Virus record (IMG/VR): IMGVR_UViG_3300008117_000445
Location: 1 to 64,000 of that record
Direction: 5' to 3' (one strand)
Source of the DNA: a virus
Length of the DNA stretch: 64,000 nt
The position numbers and the translations under genes are program-made. The notes under the pieces are model-generated. The model did no database searches. It had not been told where the DNA came from and worked only from the letters and a program-made list of their open reading frames with translations. The number at the start of each line of letters is the position of its first letter. The stretch's first letter is position 1. Below are positions 1-41,255 of this stretch, one piece after another.

Positions 1-13
1 ATTTAATCAAAAA

Positions 14-45
14 AATTTGACACTTTTTATAATATCAATATATTT
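14..45 (+). promoter_or_regulatory. Bacteroidetes-type sigmaA promoter (TTTG -33 / TAtaTTTA -7)
   Basis: TTTGacactttttataatatcaaTATATTTA; same architecture repeated at 410-445, 590-632, 735-776. Confidence 0.35.
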
Positions 46-76
46 ATATATTATAAATAATAAATCAAAAAAAACG

Positions 77-1243: not shown

Positions 1244-1317
1244 ACTGATGTAGCTCAATCGGTGAGTACGAGGTGTTCATACCTCAAGGTTATGGGTTCA
1301 AGTCCCTTCATCAGTAC
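1244..1317 (+). tRNA. tRNA, anticodon uncertain (loop reads UGUUCAUA: 8 nt as transcribed; GTT or TCA possible)
   Basis: acceptor ACTGATG/CATCAGT perfect 7 bp, D-arm GCTC..GAGT, T-arm ATGGG-TTCAAGT-CCCTT. Confidence 0.55.
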
Positions 1318-1319
1318 TG

Positions 1320-1900
1320 GGAGTGTACACAGTAGAGTTCAGCTTGAGAACAGATGTAACACACACTTTAAAGGGGGTTACAAGGTGTTAAGCCGTTTAT
1401 CAGATTTGGTCGTTAAAATCTGCCGTTGTTGATGAGATAGGTTTAACGTATAAACTTTCCTCCGTGATGTTAGTGGGTTTGATCACCCCTTTCACGTAAA
1501 TGTGATGAAACGAAACCCAAAGGAGTAGTCACAACTTGCGGGTATAGCATAAAATTAATGCTTCGCCATCTATCCGCTCAAAATGAAACAACAGAAGACG
1601 AATTAGCGTCGTTGAAAGGAACCTTGGCTCTCACAAGATCGCAACTTTTACTGAGAGTTGGAATGCCCCAAGGTACTCTGTTCAGATCCCTGCTCTGATG
1701 TGCACGTCAACAGGTTATGGGGAACAAACCATAAGTAAAAATCGTAGAAATGTTTCATTCTTATTAAATGGGAAAGAGATGCCCGAAGTTTTTAAGTTTC
1801 CTTCATAAAAACTTAACGAGAGTGGTACTAACGCGTGAAAATAGTACTCATTGGGAATCGGTTTGGAATATCCTCCTCTCCCCCAAGTATAAGGATTGAC
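1320..1900 (+). ncRNA. ORF-free structured RNA segment (unknown; not tRNA)
   Basis: many local hairpins (e.g. GCGGGTA...TATCCGC mini-helix at ~1541-1583), no ORF, GC-enriched. Confidence 0.25.
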
Positions 1901-1902
1901 TT

Positions 1903-1978
1903 TTTTAAAGGGGATGCCCAGCAGGTTTTTGAAAAAGAAAAACCGATGTAACTACTCACCAGTAATCTCAAGGTGGGG
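1903..1978 (+). ncRNA. conserved ~75-nt element, copy 1 (GGGGATGCCCrGCAGGTTTTT...AAAAACCGAT.T.ACTACTC...)
   Basis: near-identical second copy at 8647-8722; contains GGTTTTT/AAAAACC hairpin. Confidence 0.4.
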
Positions 1979-1984
1979 AAATTT

Positions 1985-2061
1985 GGGGGTGTAGCTCAAT
2001 TGGCTGAGCGGCTCGTTTGCAACGAGAGGGTTTTATGTGGGTTCAAGTCCCACCTCCTCCA
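1985..2061 (+). tRNA. tRNA-Ala (anticodon UGC)
   Basis: acceptor GGGGGTG/CTCCTCC with G3:U70 Ala identity pair; D-arm GCTC-AATTGGCT-GAGC; anticodon loop TTTGCAA; T-arm GTGGG-TTCAAGT-CCCAC. Confidence 0.75.
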
Positions 2062-2156
2062 CAAAGTTCGGAGTAATTAACCGAACCTAACAAGAAGATG
2101 GGTCATATAGCCTAAGGAAATTTGGTACCACTAATTCCTGTCTGTCTTCTTGATTA

Positions 2157-2233
2157 ACTACTTATGGTGTAAATTGGATTGCACATCGGTCACTAAGGCC
2201 GAAGGGTTGTAGGTTCAAGTCCTATGGGTAGTT
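2157..2233 (+). tRNA. tRNA-like gene; anticodon loop reads CACUAAG (CUA in anticodon position: amber-suppressor-like), lacks U33
   Basis: acceptor CTACTTA/TGGGTAG (2 G:U), anticodon stem TCGGT/GCCGA, T-arm GTAGG-TTCAAGT-CCTAT. Confidence 0.4.
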
Positions 2234-2240
2234 CAAATAG

Positions 2241-2357
2241 TCAGGTGGCGAGAGGAACACGCCCCGAAAGTGGAGAGTAACAATACCAACGGGACTCACG
2301 GAGATACTGCGTCCACTGCTGATGGTATCTATCACCGGTTTAAATCCGGTCCTGACT
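2241..2357 (+). tRNA. atypical long (117 nt) tRNA-like gene, acceptor AGTCAGG/CCTGACT
   Basis: perfect 7-bp acceptor, D-arm GGCG-AGAGGAACA-CGCC, T-arm CCGG-TTTAAAT-CCGG, ~35 extra nt between D- and T-arms. Confidence 0.3.
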
Positions 2358-2524
2358 ACATGAAGGTAAAAATATGAAACTTGGTAGTTCTTGTGGATTA
2401 TGATTACCCTGAATGTTTTTACAACTTTCATTCAGAAACCAAAAAATAAATGTTGTTGCAGGTTTAATAAAGGAATGGAGGAAAGTCTAACTAACGAGTA
2501 CTTCATAACCTACTGTATAAAATA

Positions 2525-2609
2525 GTCAGGTGGCGGAATTGGAAGACGCTATCCATTGGAAAGGCTGAGTTAAAAACGGCATTCAAGGTTCAAATCCTTG
2601 CCTGACTAC
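2525..2609 (+). tRNA. 85-nt tRNA-like gene (type-II-sized), acceptor AGTCAGG/CCTGACT; loop TTGGAAA (GGA, Ser-like) but anticodon stem does not pair as read
   Basis: perfect acceptor and T-arm CAAGG-TTCAAAT-CCTTG; shares 5' 15 nt and 3' end with the 2241-2357 gene. Confidence 0.35.
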
Positions 2610-2708
2610 AATCAGTTGCTTGATTCCTGGTAGTAGAGTAACAACCATTGGGATATTCGGGAAAATTCCGTGAATGGTGGTGTAAGATATAAAAGGGAAA
2701 CTTACAAT

Positions 2709-2781
2709 GGTGGAGTACCAAAGACAAAGGAAACGAGACATATGGGTGATCATATGTTGGCGCAAATCTCCACCTTTTTAA
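2709..2781 (+). terminator. stem-loop plus T-run (rho-independent terminator-like)
   Basis: GGTGGAG...CATATGGGTGATCATATG...CTCCACC followed by TTTTTAAATT. Confidence 0.4.
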
Positions 2782-2792
2782 ATTAAAAAATT

Positions 2793-2981
2793 ATGACACT
2801 AAAAGAACAAATTAATGCCGACTTTATGTCCGCATTTAAGAACAAAGAAATGGATAAGAAAAACTTCCTTGGAGTTGTTAAAGGTGAAATCCAAAATGAA
2901 GAAGGAAGGAGTGGGACCGTAACTGATGAGGTTGTTTTGTCCATCTTAAAGAAAATAAACCACCCATCGGCTAAAGACCAA
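2793..2981 (+). pseudogene. yqeY: 5' fragment of yqeY-like (GatB/YqeY-domain) gene, truncated by the IS insertion
   Basis: MTLKEQINADFMSAFKNKEMDKKNFLGVVKGEIQNEEGRSGTVTDEVVLSILKKI matches the YqeY N-terminal consensus (M.LKE.I..D.K.A.KAKDK.....L..A.KNEEI..G..LTDEEVL.VIKK); ORF then runs into IS sequence. Confidence 0.5.
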
Positions 2982-4385
2982 TGGGTTTTGTAGGATTAAT
3001 CCTAACTGGGTGGTTTATAACACCGCTTACATCCGTAAGAGATAAATCTCCATCAGATTTACTTTTATATTTTCTTAATATATTACAAGCACCATTCACA
3101 TCAGCATTAATTAATTTACCTTTTTTTGTTCTAAATAAACCTCGTTTAATGCGTTTACCTAAATATTCTTCGTGTTTCTCTATTTTTTCCAAATCCAACG
3201 ACGAACATTTTGATGTGTATGATTCTTCCTGTAGAACATAATTAATTCCGTAATATTCACATTTTGTTTCTAATTTTCTTTTTAAAATACCAAATGGTAC
3301 CGAAACAAAGTTCTGATTATTTACTTTACCGATATTAATTTCATTTTTCATACCTTTAAAATCACCTATAACTATTGTACCAATATCGTTATTAATACAA
3401 TATTTAACTATTTTATTCACACTCTGATTAAAGTAGTTATTTATATAATTTTTTCTATATTCACTTAATTTAATAAATTTTTTTGTGTTTTTATCTTTTA
3501 ATTTATTTTTTTCATATTCACTTTGTAATCTAGCTTTTTCTTTATTGTAATGATGGTTTACAGATTTAAGTGGTTTACCATCTATAATAAATGATGATTT
3601 ATTTTTAGTGTTATAAGATGTCAAAAGATTATCCAATCCACAATCAATACTTAATATATTATTATGGTTTAATTTCTTTACATTATCTTCAGCAACATAT
3701 GTTATAATTAACTCATACTCTTTACCACCATAAATGGGTTTAATCTGTAATTGTTGTAATTTATTGGTTTTAATATTTTTCGGTAGGTTAAATATGATAT
3801 CACGTTTTAATACATTATATTCTTCTCTAAATTGTTTACTAAGACCCATATATATTTTACCATTTTTAACCCTAGAACTTCTACCGGCAACTAATACTGA
3901 CCACCCAGAATCCTTATCTAAATAAGATGGGACATTAACCGGATTAGAGTACTTACCTTTTTGTTTTAATTTAAGTAATGAGAAAAATGATTTAAAATTT
4001 CTATCAACTAACCTATGTGTTTGTTGTGCGGAGTCTGTTATAAGTAATTTATAGTTCACATCATCTTTAATTAAATGATATTGATCAACATAATTTAAAT
4101 AAGAATTATTATTAAAGTAATACTGTCTAATGTTATAAACACAACTATTATATAAACGAGCAGAATGATATGATAACTTATCTATAATAAATTTTTCATC
4201 TTCATTCAATTTAAGTTTATATTTTTGTGTTAACATCATAATCTCCTATATATAAATATAGGGAAAGTGTGAAAAAACTTGTTTTATATAAAAAAAATAT
4301 TATATTTTAATCATTAACTAAAACATAAAGAAGGAAAAGTGATTCGTTTCCTCCCACAAACTAAAGATTTGTGGGTTTCCACGAA
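2960..4385 (-). mobile_element. IS200/IS605-family element, TnpB-only (IS1341-like), no tnpA
   Basis: tnpB ORF plus subterminal imperfect hairpins: CCCACAAActaaagaTTTGTGGG at 4349-4371 (left end) and CCACCCA...TGGGTGG near 2960-3015 (right end); flanked by the two yqeY fragments. Confidence 0.6.
2971..4239 (-). CDS. tnpB: TnpB/OrfB RNA-guided endonuclease (IS605 family)
   Basis: RuvC-I ILSIDCGLDNLLT, RuvC-III NADVNGACNILRK (DxDxNAAxNI consensus), C-terminal Cys/His zinc-finger region, N-terminal QKYKLKLNEDEK typical of OrfB. Confidence 0.75.
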   Translation of the reverse strand: MMLTQKYKLKLNEDEKFIIDKLSYHSARLYNSCVYNIRQYYFNNNSYLNYVDQYHLIKDDVNYKLLITDSAQQTHRLVDRNFKSFFSLLKLKQKGKYSNPVNVPSYLDKDSGWSVLVAGRSSRVKNGKIYMGLSKQFREEYNVLKRDIIFNLPKNIKTNKLQQLQIKPIYGGKEYELIITYVAEDNVKKLNHNNILSIDCGLDNLLTSYNTKNKSSFIIDGKPLKSVNHHYNKEKARLQSEYEKNKLKDKNTKKFIKLSEYRKNYINNYFNQSVNKIVKYCINNDIGTIVIGDFKGMKNEINIGKVNNQNFVSVPFGILKRKLETKCEYYGINYVLQEESYTSKCSSLDLEKIEKHEEYLGKRIKRGLFRTKKGKLINADVNGACNILRKYKSKSDGDLSLTDVSGVINHPVRINPTKPIGL

Positions 4386-4496
4386 TTAAAAATTATGAAT
4401 AACATTGGTCAAATAATGGGTGAGTTCAACAAACATTACAAAGGTTTGGTTGATAACAAACTGGTGAGTCAAATAACAAAGGAGATTTTAAATTAA
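4360..4496 (+). pseudogene. yqeY: 3' fragment of yqeY-like gene (resumes right after IS left end)
   Basis: FVGFHELKIMNNIGQIMGEFNKHYKGLVDNKLVSQITKEILN matches YqeY C-terminus (..SMKDMGKVMG.LM.K.KG.ADGKLVNQLVKEKL); central ~50 aa of YqeY missing. Confidence 0.45.
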
Positions 4497-4518
4497 TATA
4501 TTGTTTTTGTTTAATTAA

Positions 4519-4551
4519 AAAAGGAGACCAAATTAATGATCTCCTTTTTTT
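4519..4551. terminator. bidirectional rho-independent terminator
   Basis: AAAAAAGGAGAccaaattaatgaTCTCCTTTTTTTTT between the convergent yqeY fragment and the tail-fibre gene. Confidence 0.6.
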
Positions 4552-4570
4552 TTGATATTAACTAAGTTGA

Positions 4571-7500
4571 TTAGTTTGTACCTTTTTCACCGTAAACAAG
4601 GATTTTATTTCCTGTTAATGGTGGAACTGTAAACGTAACAACTGTTCCGTCAAATGTATAGTCTTCAGTCTCTGTTTGACCAAGACCATTCAACATCACA
4701 AGTTCAGTTCCAATGATGATTTCATCATTCAAAGTGAACGCTGAGATTACACCATTTGGAGTTCCAGCATATCCAATTCTTTGGAATGAATTTGTATCCA
4801 GACCAGCAATCGCATCATCAACATATAGTTTTGTAACCAACGTTAAATCATCAAACTGAGTCAATCCAGATGGTTGAGCTGTCAATCTAATATTATCAGA
4901 CATTGTTAAACCTGTTGTATAGAACTCAGCAAGGTTTGATCTGTTGTTGTTATCAGCACCATTACCAATAATTGCAAGTTGAGTGTCACCAGATACGTTA
5001 AATGTTCCTTGAACGTGTTGTGCTCTACCTGCTGCAATTGTTCCTTCACCTTCAGCATGCGAATAATCGCTTGTCCTTCAGCGTGAGAATATAATCCAGA
5101 TGCGATTGTTGAAGCACCTTCAGCGTGAGAATATAATCCAGATGCCGTTGTATTATAACCTTCAGCGTGAGAATAATATCCAGATGCCGTTGTTAAATAT
5201 CCTTCAGCGTGAGAATAATTTCCTAATGCCGTTGTTGCATAACCTTCAGCGTGAGACATATCACCAACAGAAGTTGTATTAAATCCTTCAGCGTGAGAAC
5301 CAACACCAATTGCATAACCTCCAGCAAAATCATTAGCTTGATCTCCACCTTCTGCGTGAGAGTTAACACCTTCAGCTATTGTTTTGTATCCTTCAGCGTG
5401 AGAAGCATATCCTGATGCCGTTGTTGTATTACCTTCAGCGTGAGAAACATATCCGGACGCCGTTGTTGATCTACCTTCAGCGTGAGAATAATTTCCAGAT
5501 GCCGTTGTGTAATAACCTTCAGCGTGAGAACCTAAACCAACAGAAGTCGTCTGAATACCTTCAGCGTGAGAACCATACCCGGAGGCTGTTGTAGATGAAC
5601 CTTCAGCGTGAGAATAATTTCCAGATGCAGTTGTAGAATTACCTTCAGCGTGAGAACTTTGACCCAATGCCGTTGTGTAATTACCTTCAGCGTGAGAATA
5701 ATTTCCAGATGCCGTTGTCTGAATACCTTCGGCGTGAGAAGCACTACCTATAGCTACTGAGTAATTACCTTCAGCGTGAGAACCATTACCAACAGAAGTT
5801 GTCTGAATACCTTCAGCGTGTGAACTTTGACCCAATGCCGTTGTTCCAATACCTTCAGCATGAGAATAATATGCGGATGCTGTCGTTAAAGAACCTTCAA
5901 CGTGAGAATGATATCCAGATGCCGTTGTTAATCTACCCTCAGCGTGAGAATAATTTCCAGATGCCGTTGTTCCTTCACCTTCAGCGTGAGAATAATTTCC
6001 AGACGCAACGGTATTATAACCTGACGCAGTTGAATTTAAACCACTTGCCGTTGAACCAGTTGTTCCAAGAACGATTGAACCCTCAAATGTTCTGGTACCA
6101 CCACTATTTGCTGCAACAACTTGTTTTAACTCAAGTTTGTTATCACCATTTACAATTACGGTAACACCATCAGCATCAGCAAGACCATCAATTTCATTTT
6201 CTAATGATGTGTCAGCACTTGCTCTTACACTTTCTTCAGTTGAAACTCTTGAATCCAATGATCCTTCCGCACTTTCTGCTCTTGAAGTTTCAGAAGAAAC
6301 TTTTGAATCTAATGAGCCTTCAGCAGATTCTGCTCTTGAAGTTTCCGTAGAAACTTTTGAATCTAATGAACCTTCAGCTGACTCAGCTCTACTAACTTCT
6401 TGAGAAATTAAAGCTTCAAGTGAATCGTCACCTGATTCGTTACTTGAAATTCTCGCAGATAATGAATCTTCAGCTGACTCCGCTCTTGAAGTTTCTGTAG
6501 ATACTTTACTGTCTAAAGAACTATCAGCAGATTCTCTGTTTGAAACCTCAGTAGAAATATCAGATGAAATCTTAGAATCCAATGAACCTTCAACACTTTC
6601 AGCTCTTGACGTTTCGTTAGAAACTTTTGAATCTAATGAAGTTTCAGCTGAATCTCTTTTACTTTCTTCAGTTGAAATTCTGGACTCAAGCGAATCTTCA
6701 GTACTTTCCGCTCTTGATGTTTCTGTAGAAACTTTTGAATCCAAAGAACCTTCAGCGGATTCCGCTCTACTAACTTCTTGAGAAATTAAAGCTTCAAGTG
6801 AATCATCACCAGATTCGTTTTGAGAAATTCTAGCAGATAATGAATCTTCAGCAGATTCTGCTCTACTTGTTTCAGAAGATACTTTACTGTCTAATGAACC
6901 TTCAGCAGATTCTGCTCTTGAAATCTCGTTAGAAACTTTTGAATCCAATGAACCTTCAGTAGATTCTGCCCTTGAAGTCTCGTTAGAAACTTTTGAATCT
7001 AATGATCCTTCAGCACTTTCAGCTCTACTTGTTTCGTTAGAAACTTTTGAATCCAAAGAACTATCAGCAGATTCTCTGTTTGAAGTTTCAGAAGAAACTT
7101 TTGAATCCAAAGAACTATCAGCAGATGCTCTGTTACTTTCTTCAGTAGATACTCTAGAATCTAATGAACCTTCAGCAGATTCTGCTCTTGATGTTTCTTG
7201 AGAAATCAACGCTTCCAATGAATCATCACCTGATTCGTTACTTGAAATTCTTGCAGATAATGAATCTTCAGCAGACTCAGCTCTACTTGTTTCGTTAGAA
7301 ACTTTTGCATCCAATGAATCGTCACCAGAAACTCTGTTTGAAATCTCAGCAGAAATTTCAGAAGAAATTTTTGAATCTAATGATCCTTCAGCACTTTCAG
7401 CTCTTGAAGTTTCAGTTGAAACTTTTGCATCCAATGAATCGTCAGCAGATTCTCTTGTACTTTCTTCAACAGATACTCTGTCGGTTAATGAGCCTTCAGC

Positions 7501-7818
7501 CGATTCGGCTCTTGATACTTCAGACGATAAGTCTGCTTCAAGAGAATCATTACCTGATACTCTGTTTGAGATTTCAGTTGAAATCTCGGATGAAATTTTG
7601 TTATCCAATGAACCTTCAGCTGATGTTGCTCTGGACGTTTCATTTGATACTTTCGCATCCAATGAAGCATCACCAGAGATTCTGCTAGAATCCTGACTGG
7701 ATAAGGTTGAACTTAACTCCGCGATATCCGTAATTGTTAAACCGGATGGAGTTAAAATCGTTGCGTTCGTCAGCAATAAGTCGGACTGACGGTCTAATAC
7801 AATTTTAGTTTCTGCCAT
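4571..7818 (-). CDS. tail-fibre / adhesin-like repeat protein (~1080 aa if read through); frame broken at ~5055-5080 inside the repeat array
   Basis: N-terminal ~36 x 14-aa repeats (SRAESAEGSLDSKVSxET), then ~28 x 14-aa Hep_Hag/YadA-head-like repeats (TTASGNYSHAEGxx, 42-nt DNA period), then non-repetitive C-terminus in frame of ORF 4571..4903; one repeat unit is 26 nt instead of 42. Confidence 0.6.
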
Positions 7819-7894
7819 TTTTTAATTTTTAAAATGATAGTTTATTCTGTATCTCTTTATACAGCATGTTTTTCTGGATACGTATATACATACG

Positions 7895-7930
7895 GATATG
7901 TGATATGTGATATTGGATATGTGATATAGA
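7895..7930. repeat. short tandem GATATGT heptamer repeats upstream of tail-fibre gene
   Basis: GATATGTGATATGTGATATTGGATATGTGATATAGATA; adjacent inverted repeat CCGCAT...ATGCGG at 7941-7975. Confidence 0.4.
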
Positions 7931-8091
7931 TACTAGTTACCCGCATCCCTGCCGATACATTATATAAATATGCGGTACTTTACAAAAAGTCACTAATTGT
8001 TTAATTTTTTTTTAAAAAAAATAAAAAAATGAGTTTTTTGTTGTTAATATCATTTATTTCAATTATATTTGTTGTCAGAAAAAAGAAATAA

Positions 8092-8198
8092 GGTCAGAAG
8101 CGTAATGCGGGACGGTACCCAAACCCTCAAGACACCACGGTCCAAGAGCAATTTGGACGCGAGAAGTTATAAGGTTGCATATTGTTGGTTCAAATCCA
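8092..8198 (+). tRNA. atypical long (107 nt) tRNA-like gene, acceptor GGTCAGA/TCTGACC
   Basis: perfect 7-bp acceptor, T-arm GTTGG-TTCAAAT-CCAAC; internal arms not resolvable by eye. Confidence 0.3.
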
Positions 8199-8226
8199 AC
8201 TCTGACCTCAAAAAAATTAAAATAAG

Positions 8227-8511
8227 ATGAAAGAAAAACATCAAGAAGCCATTGATGAAATTATGGATTGGTTTGACTTTGAAAGAGTTGTCAAAGTAAT
8301 GGAGTTTTTAAACTGGAAGTGGATTACCGCCGAAGAAGGTGTACCCAGTATTGGTGAAATCAAAAAAACGGCCAGACGATTATTAAAAGAAGCGATTAAA
8401 AAGAAAACATCAATTGCAACCGGAGGATTCAAGGTGACTTATTTACCAAAAGAAGATTTTTTACATCTTGAATTTGTTATTAGTGAGTTTGATGCTGTAA
8501 TCAAAAAGTAA
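8227..8511 (+). CDS. hypothetical protein
   Basis: 94-aa ORF between two tRNA-like genes. Confidence 0.45.
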   Translation: MKEKHQEAIDEIMDWFDFERVVKVMEFLNWKWITAEEGVPSIGEIKKTARRLLKEAIKKKTSIATGGFKVTYLPKEDFLHLEFVISEFDAVIKK

Positions 8512-8553
8512 CCACTTGACTTATTAAATATTGTTTGTTATAATTATATAGAA

Positions 8554-8632
8554 AGTCAGTTAGCTCAACTGGTAGAGCAATCCCCAACCCTAAGAAGGGG
8601 ACGTGCCGTAGGTTCAAGTCCTTCACTGACTT
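8554..8632 (+). tRNA. tRNA; anticodon arm TCCCC-AACCCTAAGAA-GGGGA (11-nt loop, or 7-nt CCCUAAG closed by A.A pairs: CUA, amber-suppressor-like)
   Basis: acceptor AGTCAGT/ACTGACT perfect, D-arm GCTC-AACTGGTA-GAGC canonical, T-arm GTAGG-TTCAAGT-CCTTC. Confidence 0.5.
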
Positions 8633-8646
8633 CACTTTTTCAATAA

Positions 8647-8722
8647 GGGGATGCCCGGCAGGTTTTTCAACTGGAAAAAACCGATATGACTACTCCTCGT
8701 TATCTTTAAGAGGGGGTGATAT
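8647..8722 (+). ncRNA. conserved ~75-nt element, copy 2
   Basis: GGGGATGCCCGGCAGGTTTTTcaactggAAAAAACCGATATGACTACTC... aligns with 1903-1978. Confidence 0.4.
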
Positions 8723-8732
8723 AGATACAAAA

Positions 8733-8760
8733 AAAGGGACTTTATTGTCCCTTTTTTTTG
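8733..8760. terminator. bidirectional rho-independent terminator
   Basis: AAAAAAAGGGACtttattGTCCCTTTTTTTT. Confidence 0.65.
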
Positions 8761-40003: not shown

Positions 40004-40156
40004 ATGAAAAATTTATCTATTAGCTTAATTTACTTAGGGTTTTTCGCCCTTATCGGAACCGCAACTTACATTACTAATAATGGTAATTGTTTGTGGGCCT
40101 TGTTATTAACACCAAGTTTAACTTATAAACAAGAAGATGATGGAGAATCAGAATAG
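40004..40156 (+). CDS. small hydrophobic upstream ORF (50 aa) overlapping the start of the RNA ligase gene
   Basis: MKNLSISLIYLGFFALIGTATYITNNGNCLWALLLTPSLTYKQEDDGESE; directly after TATATTTGTAttATG. Confidence 0.3.
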   Translation: MKNLSISLIYLGFFALIGTATYITNNGNCLWALLLTPSLTYKQEDDGESE

Positions 40157-41255
40157 TGTTGCGTATGTAGGAAAAATAGGTTCAGTATCTGAAATACCAG
40201 GTGCTGACAATATAGAATTAGTAACTGTTGGTGGATGGAACGCCATAACCAAAAAAGGAGAATATAAGGTTGATGATTTAGTGGTTGTCGCAACTACTGA
40301 CGCTGTTATACCACAAAAATTGTCAGATGGTTTAGGTGTTACTAACTACCTTCGTAAAGGGCAAAGGGTTAGAACTGTAAAACTTCGTGGTGTTTATTCT
40401 GAATGTTTGTTAATACCGGTTACTTTCGTACCTGAAAAATATCGTTATGAAGGTTCCGATTGTATGGAATTACTTGAAATATTCAAGTTTGAACCACCAG
40501 TTAAAACAATAACTTTATCATCTGGTGGACGTAAAGTAAAGTACCACCAAAATCCAAACTTCCACATATACTACAAGTTTCCAAACCAAAAGAATGTTCC
40601 GGATATGTTTAATGAGGAAGATATGGTTGTTATAACCAGAAAATTACATGGAACAAATTCCAGATTTGGTATAATAAGAAAGAAAAAACTTACTATATGG
40701 GACCGAGTTAAAATGTTCTTTGGTGACAAATGGGCTGGATTTGATTACATAGTAGGTAGTCATAATGTTGAGAAAGGATCTGACTCACAAGGATTTTATG
40801 ATACCAATGTTTGGGAAGAAATATCCATAAAGTATAACATAAGAGAAAAATTGTGGCAACACGTAAAAGATACTTATGAATATCTTGAAACTGGATTCAT
40901 AATATATGGTGAAATATATGGTGCCGGTATACAGAAGAACTACGACTACTGTTTAACTGATATAAAGTTTGCTGGGTTTGATGTTGAGGTGGACGGTAAA
41001 TACGAAAGTTATCCGGCTGAAGTTACACACTTTGACGTAATGGATTTACCAAAGGTTGAACTTTTACATTGGGGTCATTGGGACAAAGAAAAACAAGATA
41101 GTTTTGTTTATGATAACTTTATAGAAGGAACCAAAGTTCCACACGAAGGTGTTATAGTAAAACACGAATCTGGTGATCGTAAAAAAATATCAAAATGTAT
41201 AAATCCTGGATATTTAATCGCAAGTGAAAAACATAATTATGGTGATTCACATTGA
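40137..41255 (+). CDS. RNA ligase, Rnl2 family
   Basis: nucleotidyltransferase motif I KLHGTN (T4 Rnl2 KIHGTN), downstream motifs consistent with the ligase fold. Confidence 0.6.
   Translation: MMENQNSVAYVGKIGSVSEIPGADNIELVTVGGWNAITKKGEYKVDDLVVVATTDAVIPQKLSDGLGVTNYLRKGQRVRTVKLRGVYSECLLIPVTFVPEKYRYEGSDCMELLEIFKFEPPVKTITLSSGGRKVKYHQNPNFHIYYKFPNQKNVPDMFNEEDMVVITRKLHGTNSRFGIIRKKKLTIWDRVKMFFGDKWAGFDYIVGSHNVEKGSDSQGFYDTNVWEEISIKYNIREKLWQHVKDTYEYLETGFIIYGEIYGAGIQKNYDYCLTDIKFAGFDVEVDGKYESYPAEVTHFDVMDLPKVELLHWGHWDKEKQDSFVYDNFIEGTKVPHEGVIVKHESGDRKKISKCINPGYLIASEKHNYGDSH

What the first reader, a model, noticed from the sequence alone, without database searches (positions are those of the whole stretch)
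1903..8722. A ~75-nt conserved non-coding element present twice, each time flanking a tRNA gene
Two segments align over ~75 nt with a shared internal hairpin:
- 1903-1978: GGGGATGCCCAGCAGGTTTTTgaaaaagAAAAACCGATGTAACTACTCACCAGTAATCTCAAGGTGGGG
- 8647-8722: GGGGATGCCCGGCAGGTTTTTcaactggAAAAAACCGATATGACTACTCCTCGTTATCTTTAAGAGGGGG

The hairpin pairs GGTTTTT with AAAAACC. The loop differs between copies, which reads as a compensatory or variable loop.

Copy 1 sits immediately 5' of tRNA-Ala. Copy 2 sits immediately 3' of the tRNA at 8554-8632.

Conservation of a non-coding 75-mer within one AT-rich phage genome implies function. Candidates are an sRNA, a tRNA-processing signal, a recombination site for a mobile tRNA cassette, or a terminator/antiterminator.
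Basis: seen in the sequence. Interest (0 to 1): 0.6.

Follow-up and report, generated by a model that had tools for sequence, protein, structure and literature searches.

The report
New pseudoknotted RNA in phage tRNA arrays
The repeated 75-base element is real: it is the 3' domain of an undescribed, roughly 210-base folded non-coding RNA found between tRNA genes in hundreds of uncultivated, often very large, phages, and its function is unknown.

Summary
Window 1910-1978 and 8647-8716 are two copies of one structured module, and no third copy exists in the 64 kb.

The module has three helices, all supported by covariation across 96 distinct sequences.

Copy 1 is not a free-standing element. 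It is the 3' domain of a conserved unit of about 210-260 nt (window 1766-1981). The 5' domain of that unit holds a hairpin followed by three consecutive H-type pseudoknots; two of them were tested and covary.

More than 230 viral and metagenomic contigs carry the unit. It almost always starts at the last base of an upstream tRNA and ends a few bases before the next tRNA, on the tRNA strand.

It has no Rfam 15 match and is absent from 185,579 bacterial and archaeal species genomes. It does not thread as an HDV-like (theta) ribozyme and is not homologous to T4 rnaC/rnaD.

Copy 2 is an old, diverged, structurally intact stand-alone 3' domain with its own promoter-tRNA-module-terminator unit.

Best reading: a new family of stable structured RNA, co-transcribed with phage tRNAs and released by tRNA-processing enzymes. 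It belongs beside GOLLD, ROOL and T4 rnaC/rnaD. Its molecular function is unknown.

The parts
1766..1981 (+). Full copy of the conserved RNA unit: 5' pseudoknot domain, U-rich linker and 3' domain
   Evidence: nhmmer hits of the 5'-domain HMM at 1767-1907 and the 3'-domain HMM at 1909-1980; CM R1 hit at 1898-1981; alignment with homologues
1770..1784 (+). Hairpin h0: GGGAA / AGAGA loop / UGCCC. The loop holds the family-invariant GAGAU
   Evidence: Five pairs, 98.7% paired, three with double changes across 60 sequences; loop invariance
1787..1813 (+). Stem 1 of pseudoknot 1 (AGUUUUU/AAAAACU) and its loop. The window's version is divergent and its stem 2 partner is unclear
   Evidence: Direct reading of the sequence and single-sequence fold. 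In the family, stem 1 and the loop-to-downstream stem 2 both covary
1824..1848 (+). Hairpin GGUACUA/UAGUACU, at the position of the variable middle pseudoknot (PK2)
   Evidence: Fold; by-eye comparison with PK2 of L114 and L024
1851..1896 (+). Pseudoknot 3: UUGGG (1851-1855) pairs with CCCAA (1882-1886); AUCCU (1870-1874) pairs with AGGAU (1892-1896)
   Evidence: MI/APC top pair; permutation test of the d/d' stem, 4.77 against 4.11 +/- 0.07; many distinct complementary d/d' pairs listed
1897..1909 (+). Linker UGAC-UUUUUU-AAA between the domains. The same U-rich leader precedes copy 2
   Evidence: Conserved columns 1-12 of alignments A2 and A3
1910..1978 (+). 3' domain, copy 1 of the finding: h0' 1910-1912/1917-1919; hairpin A 1922-1930/1938-1945; helix B 1955-1960/1972-1977, whose loop holds the invariant AAUCUC
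   Evidence: CM hit; three helices with covariation, 14 of 18 pairs with double changes, 0 of 500 shuffles
1985..2062 (+). tRNA-Ala(UGC), starting 6 nt after the unit. Its 5' processing would define the unit's 3' end
   Evidence: ARAGORN; Rfam tRNA 52.7 bits
8516..8544 (+). Promoter-like site TTGACT-17-TATAAT with an extended -10 TG, upstream of the tRNA that precedes copy 2
   Evidence: Consensus scan, 11 of 12 matches. A consensus match only
8554..8632 (+). Atypical tRNA (about 11-nt anticodon loop) immediately upstream of copy 2
   Evidence: Rfam tRNA 43.6 bits; not called by ARAGORN
8633..8716 (+). Stand-alone 3' domain, copy 2, with its U-rich leader: h0' 8647-8649/8654-8656; hairpin A 8659-8667/8676-8683; helix B 8693-8698/8710-8715
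   Evidence: CM R1 hit at 8635-8719, 70.2 bits; no 5' domain nearby; 73% identity to copy 1 with all pairs intact
8736..8759 (+). Terminator-like hairpin GGGAC-UUUAUU-GUCCC followed by U8, closing the tRNA-module unit
   Evidence: Read directly from the sequence; not listed by the consensus scan

Best explanation
The repeat is the 3' domain of a previously undescribed family of structured non-coding RNA carried in phage tRNA arrays.

The full unit is about 210-260 nt. It holds a 5' hairpin with an invariant GAGAU loop, then three consecutive H-type pseudoknots, then a U-rich linker. The 3' domain has three helices, and the last helix carries an invariant AAUCUC loop.

The unit is transcribed together with the tRNAs. 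It is most likely released as a discrete stable RNA by the enzymes that mature the neighbouring tRNAs. A cut after the discriminator of the CCA-less upstream tRNA (RNase Z type) would make its 5' end. The RNase P cut at the downstream tRNA would leave its 3' end with a 5-8 nt tail.

It then acts in trans as a folded RNA, alone or with a protein or other RNA partner, as proposed for the other non-tRNA passengers of phage tRNA islands (GOLLD, ROOL, T4 rnaC/rnaD). The two complementary invariant loops, GAGAU and AUCUC, probably form a kissing contact within one molecule or between molecules.

The 3' domain can function alone: the window keeps a second, old, intact copy behind its own promoter and tRNA.

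Shown here: existence, family, secondary structure, genomic placement. Inferred: processing route, action in trans, kissing contact. The molecular function is not known.
For: - Family and extent: 121 of 139 viral loci with a match, and 111 of 116 metagenome loci, hold one 5' domain next to one 3' domain.
- 3' domain structure: 92.5% of cells paired, 14 of 18 pairs with double changes, 118 compensatory cells, 0 of 500 shuffles as high; slid controls 37-60% paired.
- 5' hairpin and pseudoknot 1: 96.4% paired; all four pairs of the pseudoknot stem covary in 13-18 sequences each.
- Pseudoknot 3: the top MI pair; second stem 4.77 bp observed against 4.11 +/- 0.07 with permuted partners.
- Placement: the unit start abuts an ARAGORN tRNA end at one fixed offset in 55 of 123 loci. 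75 of 92 unique units have a T-arm motif within 40 nt upstream. A tRNA starts 2-5 nt after the model end in 78 of 123. All 1161 tRNAs are on the same strand and none on the opposite strand. The flanking tRNA identities vary.
- Not bacterial: only two chance matches in 185,579 species genomes.
- Same islands also hold tmRNA and GOLLD.
- Independence of the 3' domain: copy 2 is 73% identical to copy 1 and at most 79% identical to any other member, yet every pair is kept, with two compensatory changes in helix B. A promoter-like site and a terminator flank its tRNA-module unit.
- Invariant complementary loops GAGAU and AUCUC.
Against: - No expression or end-mapping data, so processing by RNase Z and RNase P is inferred from position and from textbook tRNA maturation.
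- The kissing contact has no covariation support. Both loops are invariant apart from A/G transitions that would keep G-U pairs.
- The exact abutment to the tRNA 3' end and the conserved unpaired CAAU at the 5' end would equally suit a cis-acting cleavage or processing role.
- The window's own 5' domain is the most divergent in the family (47 bits against about 90) and follows a freshwater-1-like RNA rather than a tRNA.
- Alignments fitted to a covariance model lean towards the modelled structure.
Confidence: 0.6

Rival explanations
1. It is a cis-acting tRNA-maturation device: a self-cleaving ribozyme of a new fold, or a dedicated nuclease-recognition structure. It would cut at its own 5' edge to make the 3' end of the upstream CCA-less tRNA, doing the job that HDV-like theta ribozymes do in gut phages. 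Copy 2 would serve the odd tRNA at 8554-8632.
For: The unit begins at a fixed offset from the upstream tRNA's last base, the same geometry reported for theta ribozymes (cleavage site within 5 nt of the tRNA 3' end, PMC10879173). The RNA is rich in pseudoknots, like several self-cleaving classes. Copy 2 sits directly 3' of a tRNA. The window phage encodes an RNA ligase, an enzyme class enriched in theta-ribozyme phages.
Against: No Rfam ribozyme family matches, even at E up to 10 on a 236-nt query. HDV-like threading is no better than in shuffles for the full unit and absent for copy 2. Covariation supports hairpin h0 rather than an HDV-type P1. The 3' domain lies about 140 nt from the tRNA in the full unit and 14 nt from it in copy 2, so no common cleavage geometry holds for the repeated module. 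Roughly a tenth of units, the window's among them, lack an upstream tRNA. A 210-nt device per single tRNA junction is extravagant when the other junctions in the same arrays have none.
Confidence: 0.15
2. It is a tRNA-related mimic or decoy. It would dock tRNAs or tRNA-handling proteins such as anticodon nucleases, CCA-adding enzyme, elongation factors or the ribosome, for instance through T-loop-like loops (AGAGA in h0, UAAGA in h0' of class II members).
For: It is found only inside tRNA arrays. The 3' domain has three successive hairpins, reminiscent of a cloverleaf without an acceptor stem. The AGAGA and UAAGA loops resemble T-loop pentanucleotides, such as the T-box stem I AG bulge; this resemblance is from memory and is a lead only. 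The arrays also carry tmRNA.
Against: The tRNA covariance model gives no hit on the unit at E up to 10. There is no acceptor stem and no CCA end. Most members have GAUG rather than UAAGA in h0', so a paired T-loop platform is not conserved. No binding data exist.
Confidence: 0.12
3. It is a DNA-level feature: a recombination or attachment site, or the boundary of a mobile tRNA cassette. Alternatively, it is a decaying duplicated tRNA pseudogene with no function of its own.
For: It occurs twice in the window next to tRNAs. Phage tRNA arrays are mosaic, with differing flanking tRNAs. One metagenome contig (L567) carries a partly degraded stand-alone 3' domain.
Against: The conservation pattern is RNA base pairing with compensatory changes on one strand, including pseudoknots. 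The minus strand folds no better than its shuffles. The unit is always on the tRNA strand. Copy 2 is diverged in sequence but intact in structure, the opposite of decay. No integrase or recombinase is adjacent; the TnpB at 2971-4239 is on the other strand and lies 1 kb away.
Confidence: 0.04

Closest known systems
GOLLD and ROOL RNAs (Rfam RF02032, RF03087), large ornate phage and prophage RNAs
   Same: Encoded by phages, typically in or next to tRNA islands. Multi-pseudoknot, covariation-supported folds. No known protein partner and unknown function (PMC12286853). GOLLD occurs in the same array as this RNA in L381.
   Different: No sequence or structure homology: neither model hits the unit. 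This RNA is about 210-260 nt, against about 580 and 800 nt. Nothing is known about whether it oligomerises. It was absent from bacterial genomes in the scan, whereas ROOL and GOLLD are common in prophages.
T4 rnaC and rnaD (species 1 and 2 stable RNAs)
   Same: Small stable RNAs of unknown function placed directly after a tRNA in a phage tRNA cluster. rnaD starts 1 nt after tRNA-Arg and rnaC follows 6 nt later, about 260 nt together. The layout matches a 5' domain plus a 3' domain after a tRNA.
   Different: No detectable homology: nhmmer --max at E 100 finds nothing, and CM R1 scores at most 11 bits elsewhere in the region. The T4 RNAs end in tRNA-like T-arm and CCA features, which this RNA lacks.
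Theta ribozymes, minimal HDV-like ribozymes next to phage tRNAs (PMC10879173)
   Same: A structured, pseudoknotted RNA whose 5' edge coincides with the 3' end of a phage tRNA that lacks an encoded CCA. Carriers are uncultivated Caudoviricetes. An RNA ligase is present in the genome.
   Different: The nested double-pseudoknot topology with a catalytic C in J4/2 cannot be threaded. There is no Rfam HDV-family hit. This RNA is three to four times larger. Theta ribozymes are mainly in gut phages, whereas several of the carrier contigs here are labelled marine metagenome assemblies and two IMG/VR carriers were from the same samples as GOLLD and tmRNA arrays.
tmRNA
   Same: A string of H-type pseudoknots; the 3' domain starts with GGGGAUG, which resembles a tmRNA 5' end; phage tRNA arrays with this RNA often also encode tmRNA.
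   Different: No tRNA-like domain, no pairing of the 5' and 3' ends, no conserved tag reading frame. ARAGORN and the Rfam tmRNA model do not call it.

Membership tests
HDV-like / theta ribozyme | Nested double pseudoknot (P1, P1.1, P2, P3, optional P4) with P1 starting at the cleavage site | tested here: not met
   A custom descriptor search gave 3 threadings for the full unit, all in the U-run at 1901-1904 (shuffles average 2.3), and none for copy 2. Covariation supports h0 and PK1 in a different topology.
HDV-like / theta ribozyme | Catalytic cytosine at the first position of J4/2 | tested here: not met
   No threading places a C in that context at a conserved site. There is no Rfam HDV-family hit at E up to 10.
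HDV-like / theta ribozyme | 5' edge within 5 nt of a tRNA 3' end | tested here: met
   Fixed abutment in 55 of 123 loci by ARAGORN, and a T-arm motif upstream of 75 of 92 unique units. This is a positional feature only.
HDV-like / theta ribozyme | Self-scission in vitro | not testable with these tools
   Needs in vitro transcription and a cleavage assay.
tRNA / tRNA-like structure | Cloverleaf with acceptor stem and T-arm, recognised by tRNA models | tested here: not met
   ARAGORN and Rfam RF00005 call the flanking tRNAs but not the unit.
tmRNA | tRNA-like domain formed by the 5' and 3' ends, plus a tag reading frame | tested here: not met
   No ARAGORN tmRNA call and no RF00023 hit on the unit, while true tmRNAs are found elsewhere in the same arrays. 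A short ORF at the 5' end is not conserved in frame across members (read from the sequences).
GOLLD / ROOL | Match to the family covariance model | tested here: not met
   No hit on the window unit. In L381 GOLLD is at 8171-8578 while the unit is at about 2163-2384.
Phage tRNA-island structured ncRNA (descriptive kind) | Phage-encoded, located within a tRNA array on the tRNA strand, non-coding, with a covariation-supported complex fold | tested here: met
Phage tRNA-island structured ncRNA (descriptive kind) | Accumulates as a discrete stable RNA during infection | not testable with these tools
   No transcriptome data available.
T4 rnaC/rnaD | Sequence or profile homology | tested here: not met
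   nhmmer --max at E 100 gives no hit, and CM R1 gives no hit in the rnaC/rnaD region.

The most novel reading that the evidence does not exclude
The unit is a new functional class of RNA specific to large phages with tRNA islands. One version is a new self-cleaving or tRNA-processing ribozyme fold. The other is a small RNA-only assembly whose invariant GAGAU and AUCUC loops kiss between molecules to build rings or cages, as recently found for GOLLD, ROOL and the manA motif. In the second version the stand-alone 3' domain would act as a separate subunit or a competitor.
Probability: 0.2. Interest if true: 0.85.

Novelty: new member of a known kind. Interest (0 to 1): 0.68.

Why it matters
Complex, pseudoknot-rich RNAs with strong covariation are rare, and they have repeatedly turned out to be ribozymes, riboswitches or self-assembling particles.

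This family is abundant: more than 230 contigs, many of 100-460 kb. It is confined to phages and sits at a precise position in tRNA arrays, next to tmRNA and GOLLD. It is missing from Rfam 15, and I found no description of it in the searched literature.

It adds a compact, tractable member of about 210 nt to the unexplained set of RNA passengers in phage tRNA islands. That question has been open since T4 rnaC and rnaD were sequenced in the 1970s. The family also comes with testable features: two modular domains, two complementary invariant loops, and a natural stand-alone 3' domain.

Tried and rejected
- My first idea, a pseudoknot between the 5' GGGGAU and the helix-B loop AAUCUC within the 3' domain, is rejected. 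The 5' Gs form hairpin h0', whose stem covaries (GGG/CCC, GAGG/CCUC, GCG/CGC, GUG/CAC, GGA/UCC), while AAUCUC stays invariant.
- An HDV-like fold for either domain is rejected. That includes a P1 made of AAUGAG and CUCAUU: compensatory changes follow h0 instead, and several members delete CAU.
- A conserved small ORF starting at the AUG in CAAUGAG is rejected. Single-base indels shift the frame in L073, L002, L116 and L066.
- RNase P RNA, group I intron, T-box, hammerhead, hatchet, pistol and twister are not supported. Rfam gives no hit at E up to 10, and the word-level resemblances I recalled did not survive inspection.
- Pairing of GUAGU (before UGAC) with ACUAC is rejected, because the first segment varies while the second is invariant.
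An 18-mer specific to copy 2 found only chance matches.
- The genome-contig scan gave two chance hits.
- A tblastn search of a large window ORF against cultured phages found nothing, so the host remains unknown.
- Four literature searches found no description of this RNA. It could still be an unnamed entry among the 10,006 candidates of PMC10690425; I could not check this.
Full report
**1. The observation**

The two segments are present as described. The repeat finder pairs 1908-1942 with 8645-8679 at 86% identity and 1938-1978 with 8676-8716 at 71%.

A covariance model (R1) built from relatives in other phages scores 93.3 bits at 1898-1981 and 70.2 bits at 8635-8719. It finds nothing else in the 64 kb.

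Copy 1 ends 6 nt before tRNA-Ala (1985-2062). Copy 2 begins 14 nt after a tRNA at 8554-8632; Rfam calls this tRNA at 43.6 bits and ARAGORN does not call it.

**2. The element has many relatives and belongs to a larger unit**

A first scan of viral contigs gave about 25 true relatives among chance hits. Aligning 330 nt upstream of them showed that conservation continues for about 140 nt further 5'. It stops at the 3' end of an upstream tRNA.

I built HMMs for the 5' part and the 3' part and ran more specific scans.
- 121 of 139 viral loci with a match hold exactly one 5' domain directly followed by one 3' domain.
- Twelve more have a 5' domain followed by a divergent class II 3' domain.
111 of the 116 with a match hold both domains, and four of the five exceptions are cut by a contig end.
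- A scan of one genome from each of 185,579 bacterial and archaeal species gave only two chance matches.

Carrier contigs are often very large. At least two dozen exceed 100 kb and the largest is 464,605 bp.

The window's full unit is 1766-1981. Its 5' domain is the most divergent found (47 bits against about 90). L069 is a near-identical relative.

**3. Structure of the 3' domain, the repeated module**

On the model-fitted alignment of 96 distinct sequences, the three helices are 92.5% paired. Fourteen of 18 pairs show changes on both sides, in 118 cells. None of 500 shuffles reaches any measure, and sliding the partner by 1-3 columns drops pairing to 37-60%.
- h0' is a 3-4 bp hairpin. Stem variants are GGG/CCC, GAGG/CCUC, GCG/CGC, GUG/CAC and GGA/UCC. 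The loop is GAUG in most members and GUAAGA or UAAGA in class II.
It carries an extra C-G pair beyond a bulged A, and that pair switches to G-C in L432. Its loop is variable.
- Helix B is 6-7 bp with a 9-11 nt loop that contains an invariant AAUCUC.

Copies 1 and 2 differ in helix B by two compensatory pair changes (A-U to C-G and C-G to U-A).

This alignment was fitted to the model, so it leans towards the modelled structure. The MAFFT alignment A2 and the MI analysis on an unfitted alignment point to the same helices.

**4. Structure of the 5' domain**

RNAalifold and an MI/APC scan pointed to the following parts.
- Hairpin h0: GAGUA-AGAGA-UACUC.
- Pseudoknot 1: stem AGUCUU/AAGACU, whose loop (AUCC) pairs with GGAU about 11 nt downstream.
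- A variable middle pseudoknot, PK2.
- Pseudoknot 3: UGGG pairs with CCCA across an A-rich bulge (AAUAAAG) and a second short stem. The apical loop pairs with the segment just before UGAC.

On a plain MAFFT alignment of 60 sequences, h0 plus PK1 are 96.4% paired. All four pairs of the pseudoknot stem change on both sides in 13-18 sequences each, and 0 of 500 shuffles reach these values.

For the second stem of PK3, the longest helix between loop and tail averages 4.77 bp against 4.11 +/- 0.07 when tails are permuted among sequences. More than 40 distinct complementary pairs occur, for example GACAC/GUGUU, GGUUC/GAACU, AAUCCU/AGGAUU and AUCGU/ACGAU.

I assigned PK2 by eye in several subtypes and did not test it formally.

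**5. Genomic placement**

In 123 oriented loci all 1161 ARAGORN tRNAs lie on the unit's strand and none on the other.
- In 55 loci a tRNA ends at one fixed offset from the unit start; the unit's first base is the tRNA's last.
- In 78 loci a tRNA starts 2-5 nt after the model end.
- Of 92 unique units, 75 have a canonical T-arm motif within 40 nt upstream. Most of the remaining 17 have a variant T-arm, and about six have none.

The identities of the flanking tRNAs vary widely, so the unit is an independent gene rather than part of a particular tRNA. The upstream tRNAs lack an encoded CCA. Ten such arrays also contain four tmRNA genes and one GOLLD RNA.

**6. Copy 2**

Copy 2 is a 3' domain with no 5' domain. 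It keeps the same U-rich leader (ACUUUUUCAA) that links the domains in the full unit.

It is 73% identical to copy 1 and at most 79% identical to any other member, yet every modelled pair is standard. It is therefore an old paralogue under structural selection, not a recent duplicate.

It sits in a compact unit:
- a promoter-like TTGACT-17-TATAAT at 8516-8544;
- the atypical tRNA at 8554-8632;
- the module;
- a GGGAC/GUCCC hairpin followed by U8 at 8736-8759.

Only one other stand-alone 3' domain was seen (metagenome locus L567). It has a damaged helix B.

**7. What it is not**

- Rfam 15 gives no plus-strand hit on the unit, even at E up to 10 on a 236-nt query.
- An HDV-like descriptor threads no better than in shuffles, and covariation contradicts an HDV-type P1.
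- It is not tRNA-like by the models and is not tmRNA.
- T4 rnaC and rnaD occupy an analogous position: tRNA-Arg, then rnaD after 1 nt, then rnaC after 6 nt. They show no homology.
- No cultured phage record matches the region beyond tRNA-Ala.
- Literature searches found no description.

**8. Mechanism**

From established knowledge, RNase P cuts at tRNA 5' ends, and RNase Z-type enzymes cut CCA-less precursors after the discriminator. Given the placement above, the unit would be excised from the array transcript as a discrete RNA with a conserved unpaired CAAU at its 5' end and a short 3' tail. This is inference; no ends were mapped.

The invariant GAGAU in the h0 loop and AUCUC in the helix-B loop are exact complements. 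The only variation in GAGAU is A/G transitions that keep G-U pairing. Copy 2's AUCUU is also compatible. A kissing contact, within one molecule or between molecules, is therefore plausible but unproven.

The closest known kind is the set of phage tRNA-island RNAs of unknown function. GOLLD and ROOL are now known to form RNA-only cages (PMC12286853), and small phage motifs such as manA also assemble (bioRxiv 10.64898/2026.07.01.735769).

A ribozyme or processing role remains the main rival, because of the exact tRNA abutment.

**9. Verdict**

The finding is real and leads to an undescribed, widespread, pseudoknot-rich phage RNA family. I file it as a new family within the known kind of structured RNAs in phage tRNA islands. 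It is not a member of any named family.

Noticed in passing
window 1679-1740 (+): Full-length match to the Rfam freshwater-1 RNA (RF02979): 70.3 bits against a gathering score of 72, E 5e-15. It lies 26 nt upstream of the unit, where most relatives have a tRNA.
   Followed up: partly
window 2794-4497; ORF 2971-4239 (-): A TnpB-like ORF (OrfB_IS605 plus Cas12f1-like TNB domain) on the minus strand. By eye it appears to split a small YqeY/GatB-like gene, with an N-terminal piece from 2794 and a C-terminal piece at 4395-4497. This could be an insertion or an IStron-like arrangement.
   Followed up: partly
window 1244-1317, 2157-2234, 2239-2358, 2524-2609, 8090-8210, 8554-8632: The phage's tRNA genes are unusual. 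They include an amber-suppressor-like tRNA(CUA), tRNAs with 8-nt and about 11-nt anticodon loops, and tRNA-like genes with insertions of 45-77 nt. 2239-2358 scores only 24 bits, and 8090-8210 has acceptor and T arms by eye but no model hit. tRNA hits of 107-155 nt also occur in the related arrays L373, L349 and L386.
   Followed up: no
L349 374-755, L381 11150-11553, L392 4300-4667, L016 5724-6218; L381 8171-8578: The same phage tRNA arrays that carry the new RNA also encode tmRNA (four of ten loci) and, in L381, a GOLLD RNA at 314 bits. These arrays therefore act as general RNA-gene islands.
   Followed up: partly
alignment A3, leader columns 1-11 against hairpin A (for example L077, L358, L360, L374, L394, L421, L434, L441): Variants of the U-rich linker co-occur with particular hairpin A variants. 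ACUAAUUU goes with GGUUUAUU...AAGAAAACC, and U/CUGUUUU goes with ...GAAAACC. This holds across members that differ in h0', helix B and the 5' domain. It could reflect a linker-hairpin A tertiary contact such as a U-A-U triplex, or shared ancestry.
   Followed up: partly
window 40137-41255 (+): ORF matching phage RNA ligase (phrog_968, E 1.4e-52). This enzyme class is linked to tRNA repair and is reported as enriched in phages with tRNA-adjacent theta ribozymes.
   Followed up: no
window 4906-7818 (-): A 970-aa ORF built from 42-nt and 54-nt tandem periodicities (19 and 10 copies), with YadA head-domain repeats. It is probably a fibre or adhesin.
   Followed up: no
window 10-63, 391-450, 579-638, 716-775: Repeated AT-rich intergenic blocks of about 55-60 nt carry strong TTGACA-16/17-TATATT promoter-like sites upstream of the tRNA/RNA cluster.
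   Followed up: no
L448 3852-4116 and 5836-6055: One viral contig carries two full units 2 kb apart. One of them has a structured insertion of about 60 nt in hairpin A.
   Followed up: no
L567 (metagenome), reverse strand about 728-800: A second stand-alone 3' domain. It follows a protein-coding ORF rather than a tRNA and has a disrupted helix B, so it is possibly a decaying copy.
   Followed up: partly
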